Of a stretch of DNA of 20,000 nucleotides, positions 199-9,959 are shown piece after piece. The notes below the pieces were generated by a model, which saw only the letters and a program-made list of their open reading frames with translations, made no database searches and had not been told where the DNA came from. Position numbers and translations under genes: made by a program. The stretch is from an uncultured virus (IMG/VR IMGVR_UViG_3300016482_000014) (Duplodnaviria > Heunggongvirae > Uroviricota > Caudoviricetes). The stretch covers positions 46,014 through 66,013 of the IMG/VR virus record IMGVR_UViG_3300016482_000014. One strand, given 5' to 3'. Positions within the stretch are counted from its first letter, which is position 1. Each line of letters starts with the position of its first letter.

Positions 199-224
199 AG
201 GGGCGGTTCACCCCGCCCCTTTTT
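199..224 (+). terminator. Rho-independent terminator
   Basis: Stem AGGGGCGG (199-206) pairs with CCGCCCCT (213-220) around a 6-nt loop. It is followed by TTTT and further T-rich sequence and starts 13 nt after the stop at 185. Confidence 0.8.
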
Positions 225-495: not shown

Positions 496-3417
496 ATGAC
501 ACCCTTAGATTTTTTTCGGTTAGTAACTCCAAGCCAAGGGGTGTATTGTTTCGCGGCCATATCTAACGGGAAGGTTGAGCATGTATTTTTGGAGTCTGTC
601 GAGGATCTCGCTGGTATCAGCGAAGCCGTCATCGATGGTATTGACCAGTACTACACTCCCGCAACATTCAAAGTGCAGGGCAAACGCACACAGGCAAATA
701 CTGCCAAGGTAAAAGCGTTTTGGTTTGACATCGATGTAGGTAAAGCCAACGACAAATGCTATTCCACACAAGATGAAGCCACAGACGCAATTGATGCGTT
801 TCTTGCTGCGACAAACCTGCCAGACCCCCTGTGGGTCAACTCCGGCAACGGAATCCATCTGTACTGGCCTTTCAACAAAGAGCTTGATGCAGAAGTGTGG
901 AAGCCTATCGCTGGGCGTTTGCAAGCATTGGCACTCAAGCATGGTTTGCTGGTGGATACATCATGCACAACAGACAGCGCAAGACTGCTGCGCTATCCCG
1001 GATCGAAGAATTACCGCGACCCACAGAACCCCAAGCAAGGAAGTATCCTGACGGATACCTATGAACCGTTGGATCTGATGGATTTTGCAGGGAAGCTCGG
1101 ATTGGGCGATACCAGCCAAGATTCAGATGAGCAAGACGAAGCATTGCCATTTTCCGTGCCTGACCATATCAAGCACGTTGACGACGACATAAATAAAAGC
1201 ATTGTTGGTGTAACGGTGTTCAAGATCATCATGGATCGATCTGACTCCTGCCAGCAACTGCAACACATTCGCAAGGAGAGAGAATCTTTACCAGAACCAT
1301 TGTGGAGAGCAGGATTATCGATTGCACAGATCTGCGAGGATCGGGAAGACGCTATCAAGGCTGTGTCTGAGGGCCACCCAGATTACAGCTACGCTGCCGC
1401 AGAGAAGAAAGCTGCACAGACCAATGGCCCCTACACATGCCAAGCGTTTGAGAAGCTGGACTCCGAGCGGTGTAAAGGTTGCAAGCACTACGGCAAATTG
1501 TCCACGCCCGCGCAGTTGGGACGGTATGTGGCTCCCGCTGTAACGGAAGAAGACCGCACGGTGGAAGTCCCCAAGCCTACGGCTACTGCTACGGTGTTGT
1601 TGCATCCCAGCATCCAACCAGCAAAGACAGTTATTCCAGAGTACCCCAGCCCCTACTTCCGACCGAAAGGCGGCATGGGTGTGCATAAAGTAGTGAAAGT
1701 GCAGGGCGAACCAGACACCTCGGTTCAGATCTGTGAATACGATTTTTATGTGACACGCCGGATGGTCGACCCGGATGTGGGCGAAGTACTGTGGTTCAGA
1801 CTACATATGCCGCTTGATGGGATCAGAGAGTTCAGCATCCCCCTTTCGGACGCAGTGGCACGAGATAAGTTACGCGATGCTCTCGCGATGCACGGTGTGA
1901 TGACAATCGACACCAAGCAGGTAACGGAGTATCTGGTTTACGTTAAAAAATGGTTGAGGCATCTACAAATGACAAAGCAAGCAGAAAAAGTACGATCCCA
2001 AATGGGCTGGACAGACGATGGCACGTTTGTCGTTGGCACCAAGGAGCTTGTTGCTGGGCAACCGGAAGGGCAAGACATCTTGTATGCGCCACCCGCAACT
2101 AAGAACATGAACATCATCCCTGCGATGACCGATCGTGGCGACTTCCACAAGTGGAAAGAGGTGATTAACTTCTACGCCAACGATGACATGGAAGCCTATG
2201 CGTTTGCCGTGTTCCTGAGTTTCGGTGCGCCACTCATGCAGTTCACGCCCTTGCGTGGTGGTGTATACAACCTAGTCAGTGAGCATTCCGGTATCGGTAA
2301 GTCTTCGGCTTTGCTGGCTGCGAACAGCATCTGGGGGCATCCGTTTGATCTGCTCATGCAAAAAGACGACACCTATAACGTGCGTATCCACCGTGCGGGG
2401 GTCATGCGCCATCTGCCGCTGACGATTGACGAAATCACCAACATGAAGCCCATGGAGCTTTCTGATCAGGTCTATGCCAGCACATCCGGTCGGGGGAAAA
2501 ACCGCATGGAGACGCACACCAATACCGAGCGCCTAAACCTGACGACATGGCAGACCCCCACGCTGACCACCTCCAACTCCAGCATTTCTGACAAACTGTT
2601 TATGAACAAAAGTTTTCCGGAAGGCGAGTTGATGCGCGTGATCGAGGTCGGAGTCCAGCGCAATACAAAATATCCCAAGTCGTATACCGATATGTTGTTC
2701 CCGCAACTGGAGCATAACTACGGGATGGCATGGTTGCCCTACATGCGGTACATCATGAACAACCAGAGTGACGTTATCGGTATGCTGCGCCGCACACAAG
2801 AGAAGACAGACTCAGCCGCAAACCTGACGCAGCGTGAGCGGATCTGGTCAACGATGGCAGCGATCGGGCTGACGGGGGGTGCGATTGCACATTCTCTGGG
2901 GCTGCATGATATCAACGTAGAGCGGGTCGCACGGTGGGTGGCTGGACATATGTTTGACAGCTCCAAGAACATCACGCAATCCAGCAGCACGATGGAAGAG
3001 CATATCGCCGCATACATGGCTGAGAACTACACCAACATGCTGATGATTCGCAACGAGCCGGATATTGGCGAGATGTCCGTGATCCCAATCATTGAGCCTC
3101 GCGGTGAGTTGTTGATTCGGTGTGAGCCTGATACCCGCCGTATCTTTATCGCCATCGGGCCGTTCAAGAAGTGGTGCGCAAAGAACCAGATTACGTACGC
3201 ATCGGTAACACAATCGCTTGAGCGCAGTGGTATCAAGGTGGAAACGCTGAAAAAACGCATGTCCAAGGGTACGGCAATTACCATGCCCCCGGTGTCCACG
3301 ATCATGATTCAGGTGCCAGACAATGTGGCAGGGTCTGTGTTTGGCTTAGACGAGATGGATAAGATCGATGAAGAGAAGAAAGCGGCCACAATTGAAGCTC
3401 TTGCCCGCACCGCCTAA
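496..3417 (+). CDS. DNA primase-helicase fusion (AEP/RepB-like primase + Cys-rich domain + DUF927-like P-loop helicase), 973 aa
   Basis: AEP motifs: WFDID (721-735), SGNGIHLYW (841-867) and DSARLLRYPG. Cys residues C252, C280, C315, C326, C329. QMGW motif typical of DUF927. Walker A-like SGIGKSS (~2287-2307), Walker B LTIDE (~2419-2433) and a downstream GRGKNR. GAGG RBS upstream of the ATG. Confidence 0.85.
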   Translation: MTPLDFFRLVTPSQGVYCFAAISNGKVEHVFLESVEDLAGISEAVIDGIDQYYTPATFKVQGKRTQANTAKVKAFWFDIDVGKANDKCYSTQDEATDAIDAFLAATNLPDPLWVNSGNGIHLYWPFNKELDAEVWKPIAGRLQALALKHGLLVDTSCTTDSARLLRYPGSKNYRDPQNPKQGSILTDTYEPLDLMDFAGKLGLGDTSQDSDEQDEALPFSVPDHIKHVDDDINKSIVGVTVFKIIMDRSDSCQQLQHIRKERESLPEPLWRAGLSIAQICEDREDAIKAVSEGHPDYSYAAAEKKAAQTNGPYTCQAFEKLDSERCKGCKHYGKLSTPAQLGRYVAPAVTEEDRTVEVPKPTATATVLLHPSIQPAKTVIPEYPSPYFRPKGGMGVHKVVKVQGEPDTSVQICEYDFYVTRRMVDPDVGEVLWFRLHMPLDGIREFSIPLSDAVARDKLRDALAMHGVMTIDTKQVTEYLVYVKKWLRHLQMTKQAEKVRSQMGWTDDGTFVVGTKELVAGQPEGQDILYAPPATKNMNIIPAMTDRGDFHKWKEVINFYANDDMEAYAFAVFLSFGAPLMQFTPLRGGVYNLVSEHSGIGKSSALLAANSIWGHPFDLLMQKDDTYNVRIHRAGVMRHLPLTIDEITNMKPMELSDQVYASTSGRGKNRMETHTNTERLNLTTWQTPTLTTSNSSISDKLFMNKSFPEGELMRVIEVGVQRNTKYPKSYTDMLFPQLEHNYGMAWLPYMRYIMNNQSDVIGMLRRTQEKTDSAANLTQRERIWSTMAAIGLTGGAIAHSLGLHDINVERVARWVAGHMFDSSKNITQSSSTMEEHIAAYMAENYTNMLMIRNEPDIGEMSVIPIIEPRGELLIRCEPDTRRIFIAIGPFKKWCAKNQITYASVTQSLERSGIKVETLKKRMSKGTAITMPPVSTIMIQVPDNVAGSVFGLDEMDKIDEEKKAATIEALARTA

Positions 3418-3634
3418 ACCAGTAAATGAATGGCGGTTCACGACTGAAGGGGTGGAGTTTGTTCTGAACTGGGACAAGCTCCCCATTCACGGGTTTGTAT
3501 TTATCCCGTGCATAGAAACTGAAAAAGTAAGTATGTCGTTACGCAAGGAAGCCAGCAAGCAGGGGATATCCCTATCCCTCAAAGTTGGTATTCGGAACGG
3601 ATACTGGGGAGTTGGAGTTTGGCGGACACGGTGA
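3368..3634 (+). CDS. small hypothetical phage protein (up to 88 aa; start uncertain)
   Basis: Overlaps the primase-helicase 3' end by 50 nt. The C-terminal part looks folded (LNWDKLPIHGFVFIPC...GYWGVGVWR), resembling small basic phage proteins with 'FxP...GVxVWR' patterns. It fills the space before the intergenic region. Confidence 0.6.
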   Translation: MKRRKRPQLKLLPAPPKPVNEWRFTTEGVEFVLNWDKLPIHGFVFIPCIETEKVSMSLRKEASKQGISLSLKVGIRNGYWGVGVWRTR

Positions 3635-3640
3635 TATACT
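3612..3640 (+). promoter_or_regulatory. sigma70-like promoter with extended -10
   Basis: TTGGAG (3612-3617), 17-nt spacer, TATACT (3635-3640), with TG at 3632-3633 giving TGnTATACT. It points into a region with no ORF that ends in a terminator. Confidence 0.65.
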
Positions 3641-3645
3641 GCACA

Positions 3646-3733
3646 CGTACCGGTTCTCTCCCCGGTACGGACATTCTCTCCTTTTGGTTCTGATGTGGTG
3701 ACACCCCCGGCCCTCTCCTGCCGGGGGTTTTTT
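3646..3733 (+). ncRNA. candidate small RNA with three CUCUCC motifs (anti-SD-like loops)
   Basis: Hairpin 1: CGTACCGG (3646-3653) / CCGGTACG (3662-3669), loop TTCTCTCC. Middle copy TTCTCTCC at 3674-3681. Hairpin 3: ACCCCCGGC (3703-3711) / GCCGGGGGT (3720-3728), loop CCTCTCCT, then a T-run. Bounded by a promoter and a terminator. Confidence 0.55.
3703..3733 (+). terminator. Rho-independent terminator closing the + arm and the candidate sRNA
   Basis: 9-bp GC-rich stem, 8-nt loop and TTTTTT (3728-3733). The T-run overlaps the TAA stop (3732-3734) of the convergent 2075-aa gene. Confidence 0.85.
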
Positions 3734-6700
3734 ATTCCTTGAGCTTCATATAGTCGGTGCGCACCCGCCCGATGTCAGACAAGATCTCAGTCTCGACCCG
3801 CTTCAGTTCGTTGATCGCATCACGACGCTCCGCACCTGAGATGCCAATGTTGGCACCAGACTCGTAAAGTTTTTTCTGCTCACGGATGGTACGCAGAAGT
3901 TTGAGCTTGGCGTTGACGTACGGTGCGGCTGCAAGCAAGTGGTAGTTTTTCTCAATGAACTTGGCCTGCTTTTCAGGATCATCCTTGAGCGAGTTTTTGC
4001 CAGCCACCGCAGCGGCAACTTTTTCACGGAATTCGTAGAAGTCATCCTTCGTGCGAGATCCCACCGGTGCCATGATACCGATACTCAAGAACGGCAACTG
4101 TTCCAACCCACGATCAGGACGGGCAGGGTTCATCATGGAATCTAGCATCATTGACGCCGTAGATCCCATCAAACCGAAGTACCCACGCACGAAGTTATCG
4201 ATCTGAATCGGTGAGGTGGAGGTCTGCTCGCCCAACCATTTCGCAAACTCAGATGTTGCCGGGGTGTACTGAAGCGCGGCTGGTTTGGCTTTAAGTGACG
4301 GTGAAATCAGTTCTCGCTTGGTAAAGAATGAGAAGTTCGTGTAGTTCTCCAGCGCAGGGCGCAGGATCGCAGGGATTGGCTCGTTGCCATACACCGTCAC
4401 GGCTCCTCGCAGGAAGTCCAGCGCAGCGTCTACAGCGGGCTTGGCTTCGTCCTTTGAGTGATCCTTGTAGTACTGAATTGCCCGCTCAGGGATGGATTTG
4501 AAGATAAACCCAAGTTCGACTGGCACTGGGATCTTGAGCGACTGCTTCATACCAAACGCATCACTGACCGATTTTGGCAGTATCCATGCACGATCCCGCA
4601 CTTCGTCTGACGTTTCCTCGTAACCCTCGTCGTCGCTCATCACAAGCGCATACATGGTACCCATCGCCATCATGGTCAGGATACGTGACACGAACATACC
4701 AGCAGCGGCTCTTTTTGCCATGCCAGAAGACGCATCTTCACCGGTAAACCCACGATACAGCAAGTCAGTACCTTGCGCCCACGAGTTAAAGAACGGGATG
4801 ATATGGGTGAGCATCCGCATGGTCTTAGATGCGCCACGGCGGTTGAAGTTGATTAACTCACGCGCACGGGATTGGGCGAGTACCGCATCCCCGGTTTCCC
4901 GCATGGTTTGCTCATACACCGCCAGACGTGCTGCCATGTCAGAAGCTTTTGTCACCTGCTCCATGGCATGAACCAGCGCACGGACTGGACTGCGGCGCAC
5001 TGCATTGGTGTCAAACTCCACCGTTTCGATTGGGTTGATGGGATTGAAGTCATAGTCACCAACAATCCCGGAACGCTCCAGTGAATCAATGACGGCTTTG
5101 TTTCCACCAAAGTTCTTCAGGAACAAGATGCGGGGCAGGTTGATAAGCGTTTTGCCCATCGCTGCCAGCGGATTCTTGACGCCAGAGTAGAACATCACCC
5201 GCTGTGCATCATCAAACACCTGCTTGAGCGCAAACATGGGGGTGGCTGTCACCGTGGTACGTAGAAGTCTTGAGCTTGCAGAAAACACGTTGATCAGACT
5301 ACCCTTGATCTCGGGAGCCTCGGCAAACGCTGCCAAGTCGTACTGGTTCTGCACTTCAAAGAATACAGGGTTGCCGCCCTCGTACAGTGCGGGCAGTACC
5401 AAATGCGTATTGGTAGCGTTCTTGGGACTATCCAGTTTGGTAGCCATACCTGCATCGGCCATGATATTCAACGTACGCACCACAGCCGAGTTGCGCATGG
5501 ATTGTTCGGTCATCCAAGCCAGCTTGTGCATGTAGTTGTCAATGGCGTTTGCCACTGGGCGACCGAGTGAACCTTTCAACTGCGGCAGTTTACCAAGCGC
5601 GGCAATACCCCTGCGACCAGCAGCAAATACGATTTCCGGATTCTCGCTGATGTCTTTGAGTCGATCGAACGGTACATAGTTGACTGCGGCTTTCCAGTTG
5701 TCAGCCTGCTCCTTGTGGATACGCCCAGAAGTGACCATCGCATCGATCAGATTGCTGCGAACTGTATTCATGATTCGCTGGATTTCTTGGATCTCAGGAC
5801 TCTTATTGAACACGGCTACCAGCGCATCAATTTCTGCGTTAGTTCTATGCAGCAGTACTTTACCCAACCGGGTTTCGTAAGCAGCATCAACATCACCAGC
5901 AGCGGCTTGCTCAAGCGCCAGCGTTTCCAACTTACGGTTATGATCCCGCAGTTCTTTAAGCCGCATTCCTTCCAGTACCGTTGCCACTTTCGCTTTGGTG
6001 GTCGGGTACGTCGAGTTGTTCTTCTTGGCAAGCTCCGCCAGTTTTTCCACAATCATTTGCGGAGACGCGGGTTTACCCTGACTATCTTTCAGTTCAGTAG
6101 CTGTCCAAAGACCATTCGACTCGAGCTTCAACCCACCCGTGCGGTATACCTGCAACGCAATACGTTGATGGTCAAATGCTTGGCGCATCCAGACAATTGG
6201 GTTCACATCGCCAAACTGCCCGCGCACTCCTTGGGAAAACGCATCGCTCAAACGCTTGGCGATTGGAGCCAAAATATCCACAGTCTGTTGACGAATCAAT
6301 GTGGCGTAGCCTGCCTCACCCTGACTGATGGTGTTGAGGAACTTGCGCATTTCCGTGCGCTGAACCTGATTGGGGGCTTGATTGACCTGAGCCAACGAGG
6401 TGGGCAGGGGTTGACCTAACGGTGTGTTGACGTTTTGTGCAGCGTACGCAATATCGGAAGCAAAGATAGACTTGCCAGTCGTGCGCATCTGCAACTCACG
6501 CCCAGACCGCATCAAACCGTCGACTGCCACCATAGCGGTGAACAGCACGTTGCCTTGGGGTGAACCTTCTGCAATACCCAGCAAAGAGCGCAGCGCACGG
6601 GCAAACCACGAGAACACCGACTGGTTGCGGTACGGCATACCCATCAACTGAAACTGGAAGTCACGGTTTGACATGGCTTCTGAGGCAAACTCAGTCAGAC

Positions 6701-9700
6701 TGGATAGCCCATACTCTTTGGCCAGATCCGGGCGGCTTGCCTTCACATGATCATAGACTTCTTGCAGCGTACGGAAGTTGGGGTTACGAGCCTGCCCACG
6801 CTCTTGCAGCACGATGGAGCGGTGGACAAACGCATGGATCATCTCATGCAGGAATGTATGGGAATCCGCAGCACCCTGCACCAGCGCAATTTCGTCGTTG
6901 ATGGAGTTGTACTCGCCCAGTATGGGTTCGCCGTTCACGTCGTTACCCAAGGAGTCCACCATACGCATAGTGGGCATGGGCATCTTCATATCAAGAATAC
7001 GGCGGGCAACGAGCTGTTCCTTGGGGTTAAACACCCCAGAGTTGTCATTAACGATGACTTGCAGTGCCGCAATAGGATCTTTCGCTGTGAATGCTTTGAT
7101 CAGATTGTCGGTTACAGCACCCGCTGAGTCACCAGTTGCTTGCAGTGTCTGTACAGCGTTAGGAATACTCTGGTCTTTTGATTTCTGTAGCATACCCTCC
7201 AAACTGCCAGCAGCACCTACGATATCGCCTTCCGCAATTTCCTCCGCAATCTTCCTGCGGTCTATCTGTGTGATCAACCCACTGTCGGCAGCATCACGAG
7301 CCAATCTTGCCAACGCCTTGGGGTCAACCGTTTCGCCCATCTGCAACTCAGCTACACGTTGCAGCGCCTCATCATGGGAAGTAGTTTCGGAGGGTAGGGT
7401 GGTTACTGGAGCAGGTGCTTGTTCGATTCCCTGAGTGTCGATTCCAGCTCGTTCAGTAGGGCGAACCAATCCTCCTGACTCAGGTGCTGTAGTGGCTCCG
7501 GTGGTACCCTCTTGTGTGGCGGTTGGGATACTGCCCACGTCAACCACTCCCACGCCTCGCTCACTTGGTTGTCCGACAGTGGCTGGCTCAGTTGGAGTTG
7601 GTGCGGGCTTGACATCTTTAGCTCCTTGCGTTTGGGGCATCTCTTGAATAAGGTATCCGCCCTGACCATCTTGCGCAACCACACGGAACGTAGCATCACG
7701 AGATGTAGTTTGGGATATTTCTGATTCGTATTCCTGTGCGGTTTCAGGATCAAACGTAACCCACGATAGATCTTTGGAGGGTATGGTTGAAAGATCAATT
7801 CCCGGTGTTGCGGTAACACCTTCGTTGCCTAGTTCATCTCGCTCGTAAGCAACTATATCTGCAGCGGTCATATCTGTTGGCATACCACTGCTTCCGGTGC
7901 GATATACCGTACGAGACTGAATATCAGGTGTAACACCCACAGTTTCAGCCGCAGGAGCCTCGACCACAGGAGCAGTGTCAACCGGTAACTGCCCCAAGAA
8001 CGTATCAATATTTTCTTTGATACTCTCTGAGCGGTTCGGGGCGTCGCGGTATGTCTCCAGCACATTACGCACAAACTGACGGTCTTCAGGCTTGGTCAGG
8101 TCGGCATTGCGCAGGTCTGCATTTTTACGAAGCACCGCTGTCTTGCCAATACCCAACGTATCAAACACAGAGTCATCGACCTTCGTGGGTGCGACGGGTG
8201 CTGCGGGAGGCAGTTCAGCCTCAAAATCAAGCGCACCTTGTGCGGCTGGCACGGGTGCAGCTAACTTACTATCATACAAATTCTGTAGTTTTTCTTTAAC
8301 TTCGGGCTTAACCTGCGGGTTCTGCATCGCACGACCAATAACCTCTGCGGCCTTGGTGCGTTGATCCGCATCACCCAAATCCAACCCCGACAACTGCTTA
8401 GTATATGCAGCCGATTTCGGCAACCCAATGTCGAGTAGTTCCTGCGGTTTGATTGTGAGGTCTACTGGTGCTGGAGCAGGAGCAATCTGTGGTGGCCCAA
8501 GCTCTCGCATAACGATTTGCTCAGGCTGTGCAGGAGTAGCGGCTTCGAATACAGCCGCCGAAGCTTTTGCTCTTTGCTCTTCTGGGATATCCTTGACTTC
8601 TTCTTTTGCCAGCTTTGCACGGCGTGTGGGTTCCAACCCAATAGTCTTGGCAAATGCCTGACCTTCACCGATCTTGTCGTTGACGAGCTTCAACTGCTCG
8701 TTGATTTGCTGACGAACTTCCTTGTTTGCCGACACACGATCGAGGTTTTGTTTGAGGATCGTGAGGTTATCTTTGGCGGCATAGAGTGAGTTCAGGCTGT
8801 CATCCAGTCCTTCCACTTCCAGTGAAACACCCGCAACACCTTGCCCAATCTCACCTACTTTTGCACTGAGTTCTTCCGCAGTTTTGATCTGTGCGGCTTC
8901 CTCTTCCTGTTTCTGTAGTTCGAGGGCTTGCAGTTCACGCTCTCGCATGACATCGGCGGTTTCTTGCTCTTGGCGCAAAATGGCTTCGCGCTCGGGTGTC
9001 ATGGGAGGTTCAATCGCCTCACCAGTGGGAGTCAGCCCACGAGCTTCCAATTCTTGACGAGCAGCACGACGATCCAATGGAGACGCCACCGCACCGATCG
9101 CTGGGCCAGCCTGCAACGCACCATAGGCAGCAAGGCCATATTTCTCAATCGCATCATCAGAGAGCAGATCCTGCCCAGACTGCCAACGCTCTAGTACGGT
9201 CTGTGCCACTTCCACTGGGATCTCGGACAAACCTCGTGCAGCACCCCTGCCAGCACCACCAGCCAACGAAGCCTGTGCGGTTTGCAGGAGTTGTTTCTCG
9301 GCAAGCTCCTTGGAGACTTCTTTACCGATCATCTTGCCGATCAGGTTTTTACCAAGAGTGAACGCCGTGCCACCGGCTTCAAGGGCTGTCTGTCCAGCAG
9401 CGGCAACGGCAGCGCTGCTCCTATCCAATTCCAGTTGTTTCTTTTGCTCTTGGGCTACTCGTGCTTGCTCTTCGAGGTTGGCACCAAAAAACTGTGGATA
9501 CAGATACCCAGCCGCACCCGCGATACCGCCAATCGTGGCTCCAACAGGGCCAGCTAGCGCACCTACTTTTGCACCAGCAAAACCTGCACCAAGCGTACCA
9601 AGAATGTTCGCGCCTTGTTCAGCAACCGCACCGGGAATCTGAGAGACGAACTCACCTGCCGCAGGAAGGAACCCCTCACGTTGGTAGATATCTTTGACCT

Positions 9701-9959
9701 CTGCAAACCCACGAGTGGGGCCAACGGCACGACTGATGCGTTCTTGTTCGGCAGCGCCAGCTTTTGCGGCAGCGGCGGCTTCTTCCGGGGTACCAATCGC
9801 ACCACGAACACCTGTACCAATACTGGTTCCAGCACGTTCAAACGAGGACGTAAACCGTTTACCCAGTGAGGCTTCTTCTTGGGGCTTGAACGCATCTTCA
9901 AAAGAAAAGGTCTCGGAAGGCTTTTGCAAAGCCTCCTCAAACGAGAATTTCTCAGCCAT
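3732..9959 (-). CDS. large polyvalent internal virion/ejection protein (2075 aa): Gly/Ala-rich hydrophobic N-terminus, possible ART-like segment, zincin-like metallopeptidase, LPD38-like C-terminus
   Basis: N-terminal FSFEEA/FSFEDA repeat and glycine-zipper segment GAGFAGAKVGALAGPVGATIGGIAGAAG. TFLHEMIHAF (HExxH at 6834-6848) is followed by EFASEAMSNRDFQ. The C-terminal YEETSDEVRDRAWILP...KIPVPVELGFIFKSIPE...SPIQIDNFVRGYFG pattern matches my recollection of LPD38. Last gene of the late operon, in the P22 gp16/T7 gp16 position. Confidence 0.75.
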   Translation of the reverse strand: MAEKFSFEEALQKPSETFSFEDAFKPQEEASLGKRFTSSFERAGTSIGTGVRGAIGTPEEAAAAAKAGAAEQERISRAVGPTRGFAEVKDIYQREGFLPAAGEFVSQIPGAVAEQGANILGTLGAGFAGAKVGALAGPVGATIGGIAGAAGYLYPQFFGANLEEQARVAQEQKKQLELDRSSAAVAAAGQTALEAGGTAFTLGKNLIGKMIGKEVSKELAEKQLLQTAQASLAGGAGRGAARGLSEIPVEVAQTVLERWQSGQDLLSDDAIEKYGLAAYGALQAGPAIGAVASPLDRRAARQELEARGLTPTGEAIEPPMTPEREAILRQEQETADVMRERELQALELQKQEEEAAQIKTAEELSAKVGEIGQGVAGVSLEVEGLDDSLNSLYAAKDNLTILKQNLDRVSANKEVRQQINEQLKLVNDKIGEGQAFAKTIGLEPTRRAKLAKEEVKDIPEEQRAKASAAVFEAATPAQPEQIVMRELGPPQIAPAPAPVDLTIKPQELLDIGLPKSAAYTKQLSGLDLGDADQRTKAAEVIGRAMQNPQVKPEVKEKLQNLYDSKLAAPVPAAQGALDFEAELPPAAPVAPTKVDDSVFDTLGIGKTAVLRKNADLRNADLTKPEDRQFVRNVLETYRDAPNRSESIKENIDTFLGQLPVDTAPVVEAPAAETVGVTPDIQSRTVYRTGSSGMPTDMTAADIVAYERDELGNEGVTATPGIDLSTIPSKDLSWVTFDPETAQEYESEISQTTSRDATFRVVAQDGQGGYLIQEMPQTQGAKDVKPAPTPTEPATVGQPSERGVGVVDVGSIPTATQEGTTGATTAPESGGLVRPTERAGIDTQGIEQAPAPVTTLPSETTSHDEALQRVAELQMGETVDPKALARLARDAADSGLITQIDRRKIAEEIAEGDIVGAAGSLEGMLQKSKDQSIPNAVQTLQATGDSAGAVTDNLIKAFTAKDPIAALQVIVNDNSGVFNPKEQLVARRILDMKMPMPTMRMVDSLGNDVNGEPILGEYNSINDEIALVQGAADSHTFLHEMIHAFVHRSIVLQERGQARNPNFRTLQEVYDHVKASRPDLAKEYGLSSLTEFASEAMSNRDFQFQLMGMPYRNQSVFSWFARALRSLLGIAEGSPQGNVLFTAMVAVDGLMRSGRELQMRTTGKSIFASDIAYAAQNVNTPLGQPLPTSLAQVNQAPNQVQRTEMRKFLNTISQGEAGYATLIRQQTVDILAPIAKRLSDAFSQGVRGQFGDVNPIVWMRQAFDHQRIALQVYRTGGLKLESNGLWTATELKDSQGKPASPQMIVEKLAELAKKNNSTYPTTKAKVATVLEGMRLKELRDHNRKLETLALEQAAAGDVDAAYETRLGKVLLHRTNAEIDALVAVFNKSPEIQEIQRIMNTVRSNLIDAMVTSGRIHKEQADNWKAAVNYVPFDRLKDISENPEIVFAAGRRGIAALGKLPQLKGSLGRPVANAIDNYMHKLAWMTEQSMRNSAVVRTLNIMADAGMATKLDSPKNATNTHLVLPALYEGGNPVFFEVQNQYDLAAFAEAPEIKGSLINVFSASSRLLRTTVTATPMFALKQVFDDAQRVMFYSGVKNPLAAMGKTLINLPRILFLKNFGGNKAVIDSLERSGIVGDYDFNPINPIETVEFDTNAVRRSPVRALVHAMEQVTKASDMAARLAVYEQTMRETGDAVLAQSRARELINFNRRGASKTMRMLTHIIPFFNSWAQGTDLLYRGFTGEDASSGMAKRAAAGMFVSRILTMMAMGTMYALVMSDDEGYEETSDEVRDRAWILPKSVSDAFGMKQSLKIPVPVELGFIFKSIPERAIQYYKDHSKDEAKPAVDAALDFLRGAVTVYGNEPIPAILRPALENYTNFSFFTKRELISPSLKAKPAALQYTPATSEFAKWLGEQTSTSPIQIDNFVRGYFGLMGSTASMMLDSMMNPARPDRGLEQLPFLSIGIMAPVGSRTKDDFYEFREKVAAAVAGKNSLKDDPEKQAKFIEKNYHLLAAAPYVNAKLKLLRTIREQKKLYESGANIGISGAERRDAINELKRVETEILSDIGRVRTDYMKLKE

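What the first reader, a model, noticed from the sequence alone, without database searches (positions are those of the whole stretch)
3612..3733. Candidate stand-alone phage sRNA displaying three CUCUCC (anti-Shine-Dalgarno-like) motifs
Seen: a complete small transcription unit sits in the gap between the convergent arms. It has TTGGAG-17-TATACT with extended TG, a predicted start near 3646-3647 at the base of hairpin 1, and a terminator ending at 3733. CTCTCC occurs three times in 63 nt (3656-3661, 3676-3681, 3713-3718), twice within 8-nt loops of perfect 8-9 bp stems whose sequences differ. A plain terminator does not need a repeated loop motif. Known: C/U-rich loops on tandem hairpins are the hallmark of alphaproteobacterial cuckoo/CcsR RNAs (CCUCCUCCC) and staphylococcal RsaE/RNAIII (UCCC), which pair with ribosome-binding sites. 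Inference: a host-RNAP-transcribed phage sRNA that occludes GGAGAG-type RBSs of host or phage mRNAs, for host takeover, anti-defence or an early/late switch.
Basis: partly seen in the sequence, partly recalled or inferred. Interest (0 to 1): 0.85.

Follow-up and report, generated by a model that had tools for sequence, protein, structure and literature searches.

The report
Conserved phage small RNA with CUCUCC motifs
Between two converging phage genes lies a small, evolutionarily conserved RNA gene whose exposed CUCUCC motifs match the GGAGAG ribosome-binding sites that only this phage's early genes carry, so it may be an RNA switch for early-gene translation, though its expression is untested.

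Summary
CTCTCC occurs three times on the + strand of the window, all within 3656-3718. [quoted passage not shown]

Twelve distinct relatives from uncultured aquatic phages keep four features. These are a -10 box fused to the stop codon of a conserved 88-aa ORF (TGATATA[AC]T, 12 of 12), a 5' hairpin with compensatory stem changes, CUCUCC in its loop (11 of 12) and a second single-stranded CUCUCC (9 of 12). The terminator-loop copy is kept in only 2 of 12. G.U pairs fit the + strand only. No Rfam family reaches threshold.

In the 66-kb phage, GGAGAG lies in the ribosome-binding site of 13 of 43 early/replication-arm genes and 0 of 47 others.

My best reading is a new phage sRNA family that pairs with GGAGAG Shine-Dalgarno sites, probably the phage's own early mRNAs. 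Neither expression nor regulation is shown: the one RNA contig missed the locus, and a cross-genome co-evolution test was negative.

The parts
3368..3634 (+). Conserved 88-aa ORF of unknown function. Its last codons carry the -35 and spacer, and its TGA stop supplies the TG of the extended -10.
   Evidence: ORF list. Homologues at 47-99% identity in 29 loci (alignments A1 and A6). No Pfam or PHROG family. AF2 mean pLDDT 84 with no clear fold match.
3612..3617 (+). Candidate -35 (TTGGAG), embedded in the Val-Gly-Val codons.
   Evidence: Sequence. Matches TTGACA at 3 of 6, so not listed by the scan. The GTT Val codon that gives the first T is the same in all 13 distinct upstream sequences, while neighbouring synonymous sites vary. 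This is weak evidence.
3632..3640 (+). Extended -10 element TGATATACT (TGA stop codon plus TATACT).
   Evidence: TGATATA[AC]T is invariant in 12 of 12 distinct relatives, while the 5 bases after it vary freely. The distance to the hairpin base is fixed at 5 nt in 11 of 12 relatives and 6 nt in L024.
3646..3669 (+). Hairpin 1 at the predicted 5' end of the RNA: 8-bp stem and 8-nt loop UUCUCUCC (motif 1 at 3656-3661).
   Evidence: Sequence and fold. Of 7 aligned pairs, 3 have changes on both sides, and 98.8% of cells are paired. On the + strand there are 69 Watson-Crick, 14 G.U and 1 mismatch of 84 cells; read on the - strand there are 15 mismatches. CTCTCC is in the loop in 11 of 12 relatives and TCTCC in 12 of 12.
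3670..3702 (+). Mostly single-stranded linker carrying motif 2 (CUCUCC at 3676-3681, context AUUCUCUCCUUUU).
   Evidence: Sequence. CTCTCC is present in the linker of 9 of 12 relatives. L025 has CCUCC instead, and L010 and L022 have degenerate C/U tracts. The rest of the linker varies in length and sequence.
3703..3733 (+). Intrinsic terminator: 9-bp G+C stem, loop CCUCUCC (motif 3 at 3713-3718), then U6. It ends 2 nt into the stop codon of the convergent gene.
   Evidence: Best terminator of the window scan. The stem covaries: 5 of 9 pairs change on both sides. The U-run is on the + strand only. The loop motif is kept only in the window and in L008, 2 of 12.
3732..9959 (-). Convergent giant gene (2075 aa, LPD38 domain), the first gene of the minus-strand virion/late arm.
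   Evidence: ORF list. Pfam LPD38, E = 8e-34. PHROGs of the neighbouring minus-strand genes are virion structural protein, endolysin and tail fibre.

Best explanation
The locus encodes a small + strand RNA of about 85-90 nt (about 3646 to 3733). The RNA is conserved in a clade of uncultured freshwater, marine and saline phages.

It is probably made in two ways. One is from its own host-type (sigma-70, extended -10) promoter, which is fused to the stop codon of the preceding 88-aa gene. The other is as the 3' end of read-through early transcripts.

The RNA starts with a stable hairpin that displays CUCUCC in its loop. It carries a second CUCUCC in a single-stranded linker and ends in an intrinsic terminator; in this lineage the terminator loop holds a third copy.

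I infer that these C/U motifs act as redundant seeds that pair with GGAGAG-type Shine-Dalgarno sequences and block ribosome entry. The best candidate targets are the phage's own early/replication-arm mRNAs, which alone use this Shine-Dalgarno flavour. As the stable RNA accumulates, it would turn early translation down in favour of the late, minus-strand genes.

Shown by computation and comparison: the sequence anatomy, conservation, covariation, strandedness, and the arm-specific GGAGAG sites. Not shown and inferred: transcription from the promoter, pairing with targets, and the direction and timing of any regulation.
For: Anatomy: hairpin, motifs and terminator verified.

Conservation: 29 of 36 fetched loci plus the window match the covariance model at 56-86 bits. 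These collapse to 12 distinct sequences whose neighbouring protein is only 47-99% identical.

Promoter: TGATATA[AC]T is invariant in 12 of 12 while the next 5 bases vary, and spacing to the hairpin is fixed.

Structure: 94.8% of 192 cells are paired. 8 of 16 pairs change on both sides. 0 of 500 shuffles reach the observed pairing or covariation score. Slid controls give 33-54% paired.

Strand: 14 G.U cells in hairpin 1 become mismatches on the - strand.

Seeds: CUCUCC is in loop 1 in 11 of 12 relatives and in the linker in 9 of 12, while stems and linker diverge.

Not coding: there is no conserved ORF on either strand, and the frame after the TGA stays open for 2-53 codons depending on the relative.

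Targets: GGAGAG lies at -22..-4 of 13 of 43 early-arm genes versus 0 of 47 others (Fisher p = 2e-5). Among GGAG-type sites the split is 13 of 30 versus 0 of 9 (p = 0.018). Three further small ORFs carry it. The arms are functionally distinct (PHROGs).

Predicted seed-TIR duplexes have a median of -13.6 kcal/mol for early-arm genes versus -9.4 for others (Mann-Whitney p = 4e-6), with 8-12 bp matches for several genes.

The same GGAGAG sites recur at orthologous genes in fragments of four relatives.

In the own genome, two promoter-proximal leaders present GGAGAG in a hairpin loop. One of them is conserved in G003 and G004, and in G002 with two wobbles.

Against: There is no expression evidence. 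The only RNA-library contig that matched lies at 2891-3083, inside the primase gene, and contigs cannot show starts or strands.

The -35 is weak (3 of 6), and the consensus scan does not call the promoter.

Early-arm sites also pair better with a generic anti-SD tail (median -7.5 versus -5.9, p = 0.003). Part of the duplex signal is therefore simply stronger Shine-Dalgarno sequences.

A 6x6 matrix of each genome's sRNA against each genome's start regions shows no preference for the own pair: own ranks are 1, 5, 4, 4, 5, 1 of 6. So there is no systematic seed-target co-evolution.

7 of the 30 early-arm GGAG sites are GGAGAA, which the window's seeds do not match perfectly.

The third motif is not conserved.

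The host is unknown, so host targets and chaperone dependence are untestable here.

Gene calls and start choices came from my own crude script, which favours Shine-Dalgarno-like upstream sequence.
Confidence: 0.5

Rival explanations
1. The stretch is only the 3' untranslated end of the early operon. Hairpin 1 would be a stabiliser or processing site (an exonuclease barrier or an RNase III/E site), followed by an ordinary terminator. The C/U motifs would have no pairing role, or would act only in cis within the long mRNA, as a 3'-UTR anti-SD does.
For: The element directly follows the last + strand gene. Transcripts from upstream must run through it to reach the only strong terminator. The -35 is weak. 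In the distant relative G001, a UUCUCC-loop hairpin plus terminator sits at the same place without the TATA[AC]T box. There is no transcript evidence for a separate start.
Against: A stabiliser does not explain an invariant TGATATA[AC]T at a fixed 5 nt (6 nt in L024) from the hairpin in 12 of 12 relatives when adjacent bases vary. It also does not explain a loop sequence and a second single-stranded motif that stay fixed while the stems covary. The cis version is compatible with the main reading and does not oppose it.
Confidence: 0.2
2. The conserved C/U motifs are a protein-binding platform and not base-pairing seeds. Candidates are a pyrimidine-rich Rho loading (rut) site that backs up the terminator at the convergent junction, or a site for ribosomal protein S1, a cold-shock protein, or the adjacent conserved 88-aa protein.
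For: C-rich, G-poor RNA is what Rho prefers (established knowledge, recalled). The element lies where head-on transcription must be stopped. The 88-aa ORF is always adjacent and has a basic N-terminus and an unassigned fold.
Against: The motif is presented in a stable hairpin loop and in only about 10 nt of linker, not in a long unstructured C-rich tract. The wider homologues of the small ORF occur without any such RNA. The exact complementarity to an arm-specific Shine-Dalgarno flavour would be a coincidence.
Confidence: 0.12
3. The RNA is a trans-acting anti-SD sRNA as proposed, but its real targets are host mRNAs (host takeover or anti-defence). On this view the GGAGAG sites of the early arm are an unrelated preference for strong, purine-rich ribosome-binding sites.
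For: The seed architecture is the same as in the main reading. The negative own-versus-foreign matrix and the generic anti-SD bias of early genes weaken the self-targeting idea. Most characterised phage sRNAs in the review table act on host genes (PMC12197685, table read).
Against: No host is known: the closest cultured relatives share only 24-28% identity in the primase. So there is no positive evidence at all. The 13 of 43 versus 0 of 47 split is hard to ascribe to Shine-Dalgarno strength alone, because the AG after GGAG does not extend pairing to the usual CCUCC anti-SD core (recalled; the core is named in the abstract of PMC10783764, search listing).
Confidence: 0.15
4. The signal belongs to the minus strand. 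GGAGAG would serve as Shine-Dalgarno sites for a small antisense ORF, or as GGA-loop hairpins of a CsrA-type sponge in the 3' end of the giant gene's mRNA.
For: GGAGAG is a good Shine-Dalgarno sequence, and GGA in hairpin loops is the CsrA/RsmA recognition form (recalled). Minus-strand ORFs of 25-65 aa start in the element in 6 of 12 relatives.
Against: No minus-strand ORF is present in the other 6 of 12, and those present differ in start and length. All 14 G.U cells of hairpin 1 become A.C mismatches on the minus strand. The U-run and the -10 box are on the + strand only.
Confidence: 0.03

Closest known systems
LhrC1-5 of Listeria monocytogenes (C/U-rich, multi-seed anti-SD sRNAs)
   Same: The layout is the same. 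[quoted passage not shown] In the window the three CUCUCC copies sit in exactly these three places.
   Different: There is no sequence homology, and no Rfam family reaches threshold. The motif is CUCUCC, not UCCC. The element is phage-borne and single-copy, not a multicopy chromosomal gene. The terminator-loop copy is not conserved. Targets are only predicted.
Cuckoo / CcsR / alpha-r14 and Betaproteobacteria toxic sRNA (CCUCCUCCC loops on tandem hairpins)
   Same: Tandem hairpins display C/U-rich anti-SD-like loops. Weak sub-threshold resemblance was detected: ar14 at 19.2 bits and Betaproteobacteria_toxic_sRNA at 20.8 bits.
   Different: The scores are far below the gathering thresholds of 58.8 and 50. 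In the 11 relatives searched, these families do not recur. Instead SdsR, SorX, PsrR1, Esr41, NsiR1 and anti-hemB appear, one or two loci each, which indicates a generic hairpin-plus-terminator shape. The motif differs (CUCUCC versus CCUCCUCCC; the latter is recalled).
Phage P1/P7 c4 RNA and P22 sar (phage antisense RNAs that occlude a ribosome-binding site)
   Same: These are phage-encoded small RNAs whose loop sequences pair around the ribosome-binding site of a phage mRNA and block translation (PMC12197685, passage and Table 1 read).
   Different: c4 and sar each control one immunity gene (ant) of temperate phages through long specific complementarity. Here a short, repeated seed matches a whole class of sites, in a phage where I saw no integrase or lysogeny module among the PHROG hits. 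That is not an exhaustive check.
T4 RegB endoribonuclease (class-specific inactivation of early mRNAs through their Shine-Dalgarno sequence)
   Same: The logic is the same: early phage mRNAs are singled out through a particular Shine-Dalgarno flavour. RegB cuts in the middle of GGAG, inactivating early mRNAs (PMC1702504, abstract in search listing). Here the early arm alone carries GGAGAG.
   Different: RegB is a protein nuclease. Here the proposed effector is an RNA acting by pairing. No RegB-like gene was looked for, and no cleavage is implied.

Membership tests
Rfam ar14 / cuckoo (RF02344) and Betaproteobacteria toxic sRNA (RF02278) | Match to the family covariance model at or above its gathering score | tested here: not met
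   19.2 bits against a threshold of 58.8, and 20.8 against 50. Nothing at gathering in the window. Neither family appears in the list at E <= 1 for the 11 relatives.
Any Rfam 15 family (including LhrC, RsaE and other C/U-rich sRNAs, if present in the library) | Match at the gathering score anywhere in the window or in relatives | tested here: not met
   0 matches at gathering in 20 kb. The best sub-threshold hits are NsiR1 at 22.9/39 and anti-hemB at 22.4/49.5. In relatives they are SdsR 30/38, SorX 27.7/46.6 and PsrR1 27.2/42, each in one locus only.
Trans-acting base-pairing sRNA with C/U-rich anti-SD seeds (functional class) | Own promoter giving a discrete small transcript | tested here: inconclusive
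   The extended -10 is invariant in 12 of 12 at fixed spacing. However, the -35 matches at only 3 of 6, and no transcript data cover the locus.
Trans-acting base-pairing sRNA with C/U-rich anti-SD seeds (functional class) | Rho-independent terminator at the 3' end | tested here: met
   9-bp stem with 8 G-C pairs, followed by T6. Present and covarying in all 12 relatives.
Trans-acting base-pairing sRNA with C/U-rich anti-SD seeds (functional class) | Conserved seed exposed in a loop or single-stranded region while the surrounding structure covaries | tested here: met
   CUCUCC in loop 1 in 11 of 12 relatives and in the linker in 9 of 12. The stems have 8 pairs with double changes.
Trans-acting base-pairing sRNA with C/U-rich anti-SD seeds (functional class) | Complementary sites at ribosome-binding sites of target mRNAs | tested here: met
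   13 of 43 early-arm genes carry GGAGAG at -22..-4, versus 0 of 47 others. Several have 8-12 bp predicted duplexes. This is computational only, and the co-evolution test was negative.
Trans-acting base-pairing sRNA with C/U-rich anti-SD seeds (functional class) | Demonstrated repression (or activation) of targets that depends on the seed | not testable with these tools
   This needs reporters, toeprinting or infection experiments.
Intrinsic (Rho-independent) terminator of the + strand early operon | G+C-rich hairpin followed by a U-run, placed after the last gene of the unit | tested here: met
   This role is compatible with, and part of, the sRNA reading.

The most novel reading that the evidence does not exclude
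A lytic-type phage encodes an RNA counterpart of T4 RegB/RegA. A single stable sRNA with redundant CUCUCC seeds recognises a private Shine-Dalgarno dialect (GGAGAG) that the phage writes only into its early/replication genes. Some of those sites are displayed in 5' leader hairpin loops, which would allow loop-loop kissing. The sRNA thereby times the global shut-off of early translation. This would be class-wide translational programming of a virus by one of its own small RNAs, using the Shine-Dalgarno flavour as an address label.
Probability: 0.3. Interest if true: 0.85.

Novelty: new variant of a known kind. Interest (0 to 1): 0.66.

Why it matters
Functional sRNAs of non-temperate phages are few. 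The 2025 review table I read lists about two dozen phage sRNAs, mostly from prophages, and none with redundant C/U seeds aimed at a class of ribosome-binding sites (PMC12197685).

This locus offers a compact and well-conserved candidate: 12 distinct variants, covariation, and a conserved promoter. It also comes with a concrete, falsifiable regulon, namely the GGAGAG sites of the early arm.

If confirmed, it would show that phages can partition their own translation programme with an RNA plus a Shine-Dalgarno 'dialect'. It would also provide a small, portable part (seed plus matching site) for synthetic translational control. If only the conservative part holds, it is still a new sRNA family absent from Rfam.

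Tried and rejected
**Expression.** One search of sequencing runs returned 24 rows. Of the 4 runs laid, the only true RNA run (X20) gave one contig at 2891-3083, and X19 is probably DNA. This says nothing either way about expression. The strain differences in that output were truncated (53 rows not shown), so I did not use them for a conservation claim.

**Similarity searches.** blastn of 3300-4100 against the phage and plasmid collections found no match. tblastn of the 88-aa ORF against phages found no match.

**Extra copies.** Two further model hits in the own genome (20.6 and 18.4 bits) are plain terminators without the motif.

**Distant relatives.**
- Pseudomonas phage Rollin has no gap at the junction.
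- Rhizobium phage RHph_TM3_14A has only a terminator there.
- Five near-complete distant relatives (G007-G011) have no model hit above 19 bits.
- In the three of them I read through (L088-L090), the small ORF abuts the convergent gene.

**Conservation of the 27.4-kb leader.** 26 loci with relatives of the downstream 300-aa protein were fetched. The 18 distinct upstream regions inspected do not keep the promoter plus GGAGAG-loop leader of the own genome.

**Seed-target co-evolution.** The matrix of 6 sRNAs against 6 gene sets showed no own-pair preference. Only G005 hints at it: its loop is UUCUCC, and it has three GGAGAA sites versus none in G002-G004.

**Coding and recoding.**
- There is no conserved ORF on either strand.
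- Stop-codon read-through or a SECIS-like element after the invariant TGA is rejected, because the downstream frame is open for anything from 2 to 53 codons.

**The 88-aa protein.** Its fold has no informative match: Foldseek best E = 0.36, and VIA-align best Z = 5.7 with rmsd 3.1 over 63 aligned residues.

Full report
**What is there**

The window is the last 20 kb of a 66,013-bp virus record with direct terminal repeats.

At the site, a + strand arm ends with three genes. These are a helix-turn-helix gene (231-476), a DUF927 primase-helicase (496-3417) and an overlapping 88-aa ORF (3368-3634). A minus-strand arm begins with a 2075-aa LPD38 protein (3732-9959). The non-coding gap is only 3635-3731.

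- TTGGAG (3612-3617), a 17-nt spacer, then TATACT (3635-3640), with TG at 3632-3633.
- Hairpin 1, CGTACCGG/UUCUCUCC/CCGGTACG (3646-3669).
- CUCUCC at 3656, 3676 and 3713.
- A terminator (3703-3728 plus T6), which is the best in the window scan.

The 90-nt RNA folds at -38.6 kcal/mol, z = -4.84.

CTCTCC is not over-represented in the window as a whole (6 found, 6.7 expected). However, the only three on the + strand are these. The whole genome has seven on that strand.

- The promoter is not in a gap. It is written over the last codons of the 88-aa ORF, whose TGA stop is the TG of the extended -10.
- The consensus scan does not call the promoter, because its -35 matches only 3 of 6 positions.

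**Is it conserved?**

The 88-aa ORF is a real gene. Protein-guided scans of the viral, metagenome and genome collections returned 36 loci, L002-L037.

A covariance model was built from 12 distinct sequences. It matched the window and 29 of those 36 loci at 56-86 bits. L035 and L036 matched at about 19 bits. L003, L027, L028 and L037 gave nothing, and L026 gave only E > 0.3.

The 12 distinct versions accompany proteins that are 47-99% identical. All 12 have TGATATA[AC]T, that is, the stop codon followed by TATACT or TATAAT. The following five bases differ freely, and the hairpin begins a fixed 5 nt later (6 nt in L024).

Hairpin 1 and the terminator are supported by covariation on a MAFFT alignment that was not fitted to structure:
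- 94.8% of 192 cells are paired.
- 8 of 16 pairs have changes on both sides.
- 0 of 500 shuffles reach the observed pairing or covariation score.
- Slid controls give 33-54% paired.

In hairpin 1 the + strand gives 69 Watson-Crick, 14 G.U and 1 unpaired cell of 84. The minus strand would have 15 mismatches, so the structure belongs to a + strand RNA.

The motif behaves like a seed. CUCUCC is in loop 1 in 11 of 12 relatives; the twelfth has UUCUCC. It is in the linker in 9 of 12; one of the others has CCUCC. Stems, linker length and terminator loops all diverge.

The terminator-loop copy is present only in the window and its 99%-identical neighbour L008. 'Three motifs' is therefore lineage-specific, and two are conserved.

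The element is single-copy in its genome; the other two weak model hits are plain terminators.

It is also clade-specific. In G001, a 58-kb relative whose small ORF is 29% identical, a UUCUCC-loop hairpin plus terminator sits at the same place without the -10 box. Five near-complete, more distant relatives lack the element, and in three of them read through, the small ORF abuts the convergent gene. The closest cultured phages, Pseudomonas phage Rollin and Rhizobium phage RHph_TM3_14A, share only 24-28% identity in the primase and also lack it.

**What it is not**

- No Rfam family reaches its gathering score in the window.
- Permissive searches give only sub-threshold sRNA-shaped hits, and these differ from relative to relative: anti-hemB, NsiR1, toxic sRNA, ar14, Esr41, SdsR, SorX and PsrR1.
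- It is therefore not a member of the cuckoo/CcsR family or any other curated family.
- No ORF is conserved on either strand. The frame after the TGA stays open for 2 to 53 codons depending on the relative, which rules out read-through or recoding.

**A candidate regulon**

I called genes crudely in the laid genome and annotated them with PHROGs.

The minus-strand genes are virion and lysis genes: tail, major head, portal, virion structural protein, endolysin and tail fibre. The + strand block at 21.7-49.6 kb holds small unknown ORFs and replication functions: ATPase, nucleotide kinase, exonuclease, helicase, primase-helicase and regulators. The RNA gene is the last feature of this early/replication arm.

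GGAGAG, the exact complement of the seed, lies at -22..-4 of 13 of 43 early-arm starts and 0 of 47 others (Fisher p = 2e-5). Among sites with a GGAG core the split is 13 of 30 versus 0 of 9 (p = 0.018). Three more small ORFs that I had not called also have it.

Several sites extend the match to 8-12 bp. Examples are AAGGAGAGAA against the linker UUCUCUCCUU, and GGAGAGGAUG against CAUUCUCUCC.

Predicted seed-site duplexes are stronger for the early arm, with a median of -13.6 versus -9.4 kcal/mol (p = 4e-6).

The same GGAGAG sites recur at orthologous genes (the 626-aa, 131-aa and about 300-aa genes and the helicase) in fragments G002-G005.

Two promoter-proximal leaders in the own genome mirror the sRNA's design. 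One is a consensus TTGACA-17-TATAAT promoter at 27433-27461, followed 6 nt later by an 8-bp hairpin with loop UGGAGAG. The other is a TTGACA-17-TACAAT promoter before the 131-aa gene, whose leader hairpin shows GGAGAG in the loop and holds the AUG in the stem. This second one is conserved in G003 and G004, and in G002 with two wobbles. These would be natural loop-loop partners.

**Evidence against or missing**

- Expression is untested. The single RNA-library contig that matched lies inside the primase gene, and contigs cannot show ends.
- Early-arm sites also pair better with a generic anti-SD tail (p = 0.003). Part of the signal is therefore Shine-Dalgarno strength.
- A 6x6 matrix of sRNAs against start regions shows no own-pair preference: ranks 1, 5, 4, 4, 5, 1 of 6. 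Only G005 hints at co-variation, with loop UUCUCC and three GGAGAA sites.
- Seven GGAGAA sites in the own genome are not perfectly matched by its seeds.
- The 27.4-kb leader could not be checked in close relatives. The loci I could fetch are too distant and do not keep it.
- My gene calls and start choices favour Shine-Dalgarno-like upstream sequence.

**Mechanism and comparison**

The best-supported reading is a stable small RNA with a 5' hairpin and a 3' terminator. It would be made from a host-type extended -10 promoter and also as the 3' end of early transcripts. Its redundant C/U seeds would occlude GGAGAG Shine-Dalgarno sites, most plausibly those of the phage's own early mRNAs.

[quoted passage not shown] In logic it resembles T4 RegB, which singles out early mRNAs through GGAG (PMC1702504, abstract in search listing). 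It also resembles the phage antisense RNAs c4 and sar, which block one ribosome-binding site (PMC12197685, Table 1 and passages read).

Two full-text searches for phage sRNAs with anti-SD or CU-rich features, and the review table, showed no described phage sRNA of this multi-seed type. This covers only the held open-access library.

**Verdict**

| Claim | Probability |
|---|---|
| Real, conserved, + strand structured RNA element | about 0.8 |
| Independent transcription unit | about 0.65 |
| Anti-SD action | about 0.5 |
| Anti-SD action on the phage's own early arm | about 0.4 |

It is a new sRNA family that works by a known kind of mechanism in a new setting.

Noticed in passing
window 3368-3634 (+): The 88-aa ORF overlaps the primase-helicase by 50 nt. 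It has a basic N-terminus and an invariant C-terminus, GYWGVGVWR. It gives a confident AF2 model (pLDDT 84; three strands, a helix, two strands). It has no Pfam or PHROG family and no clear fold match. More distant homologues (C-terminus GVRxWR) follow the primase in phages that lack the RNA.
   Followed up: partly
own genome G000:C1:27433-27490 (outside the window): A perfect sigma-70 promoter, TTGACA-17-TATAAT with TG, is followed 6 nt later by an 8-bp hairpin with loop UGGAGAG at the predicted 5' end of an early transcript. Its layout mirrors the sRNA's. Conservation could not be tested in close relatives.
   Followed up: partly
own genome G000:C1:44640-44700 (outside the window); G003 about 4600-4660; G004 about 2930-2990: A conserved TTGACA-17-TACAAT promoter lies upstream of a 131-aa gene (PHROG 'minor head protein') in the early arm. 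Its short leader forms a hairpin with GGAGAG in the loop and the AUG in the stem.
   Followed up: partly
own genome G000:C1:33276-35132 (outside the window): Three small tandem genes (87, 102 and 114 aa) share the start region GGAGAGGAT[GA]AAATG. Three others (119, 112 and 56 aa) share AAGGAGAAGAACC[AG]TG. They look like paralogue arrays with copied translation starts, and they are the best predicted sRNA targets (-17 to -24 kcal/mol).
   Followed up: no
window 199-220 (+): A second strong intrinsic terminator (8 pairs, 7 G-C, then T-run) lies inside the early arm, just upstream of the helix-turn-helix gene at 231-476. This suggests the last four + strand genes form a separate unit.
   Followed up: no
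own genome, both arms: At least six homing-endonuclease-like genes (HNH, GIY-YIG) are scattered through the structural and replication modules. All six matches to an extended -10 pattern (TGnTA[TC]A[ACT]T) are on the + strand and none on the minus strand. About six per strand are expected by chance, so only the absence on the minus strand is notable.
   Followed up: no
window 3656-3718 versus L008 468-560: Between the two closest variants the motif changes by CT-dinucleotide steps (CUCUCC versus CUCUCUCC) in the linker and the terminator loop. This suggests slippage within (CU)n tracts as the way the seeds drift.
   Followed up: no
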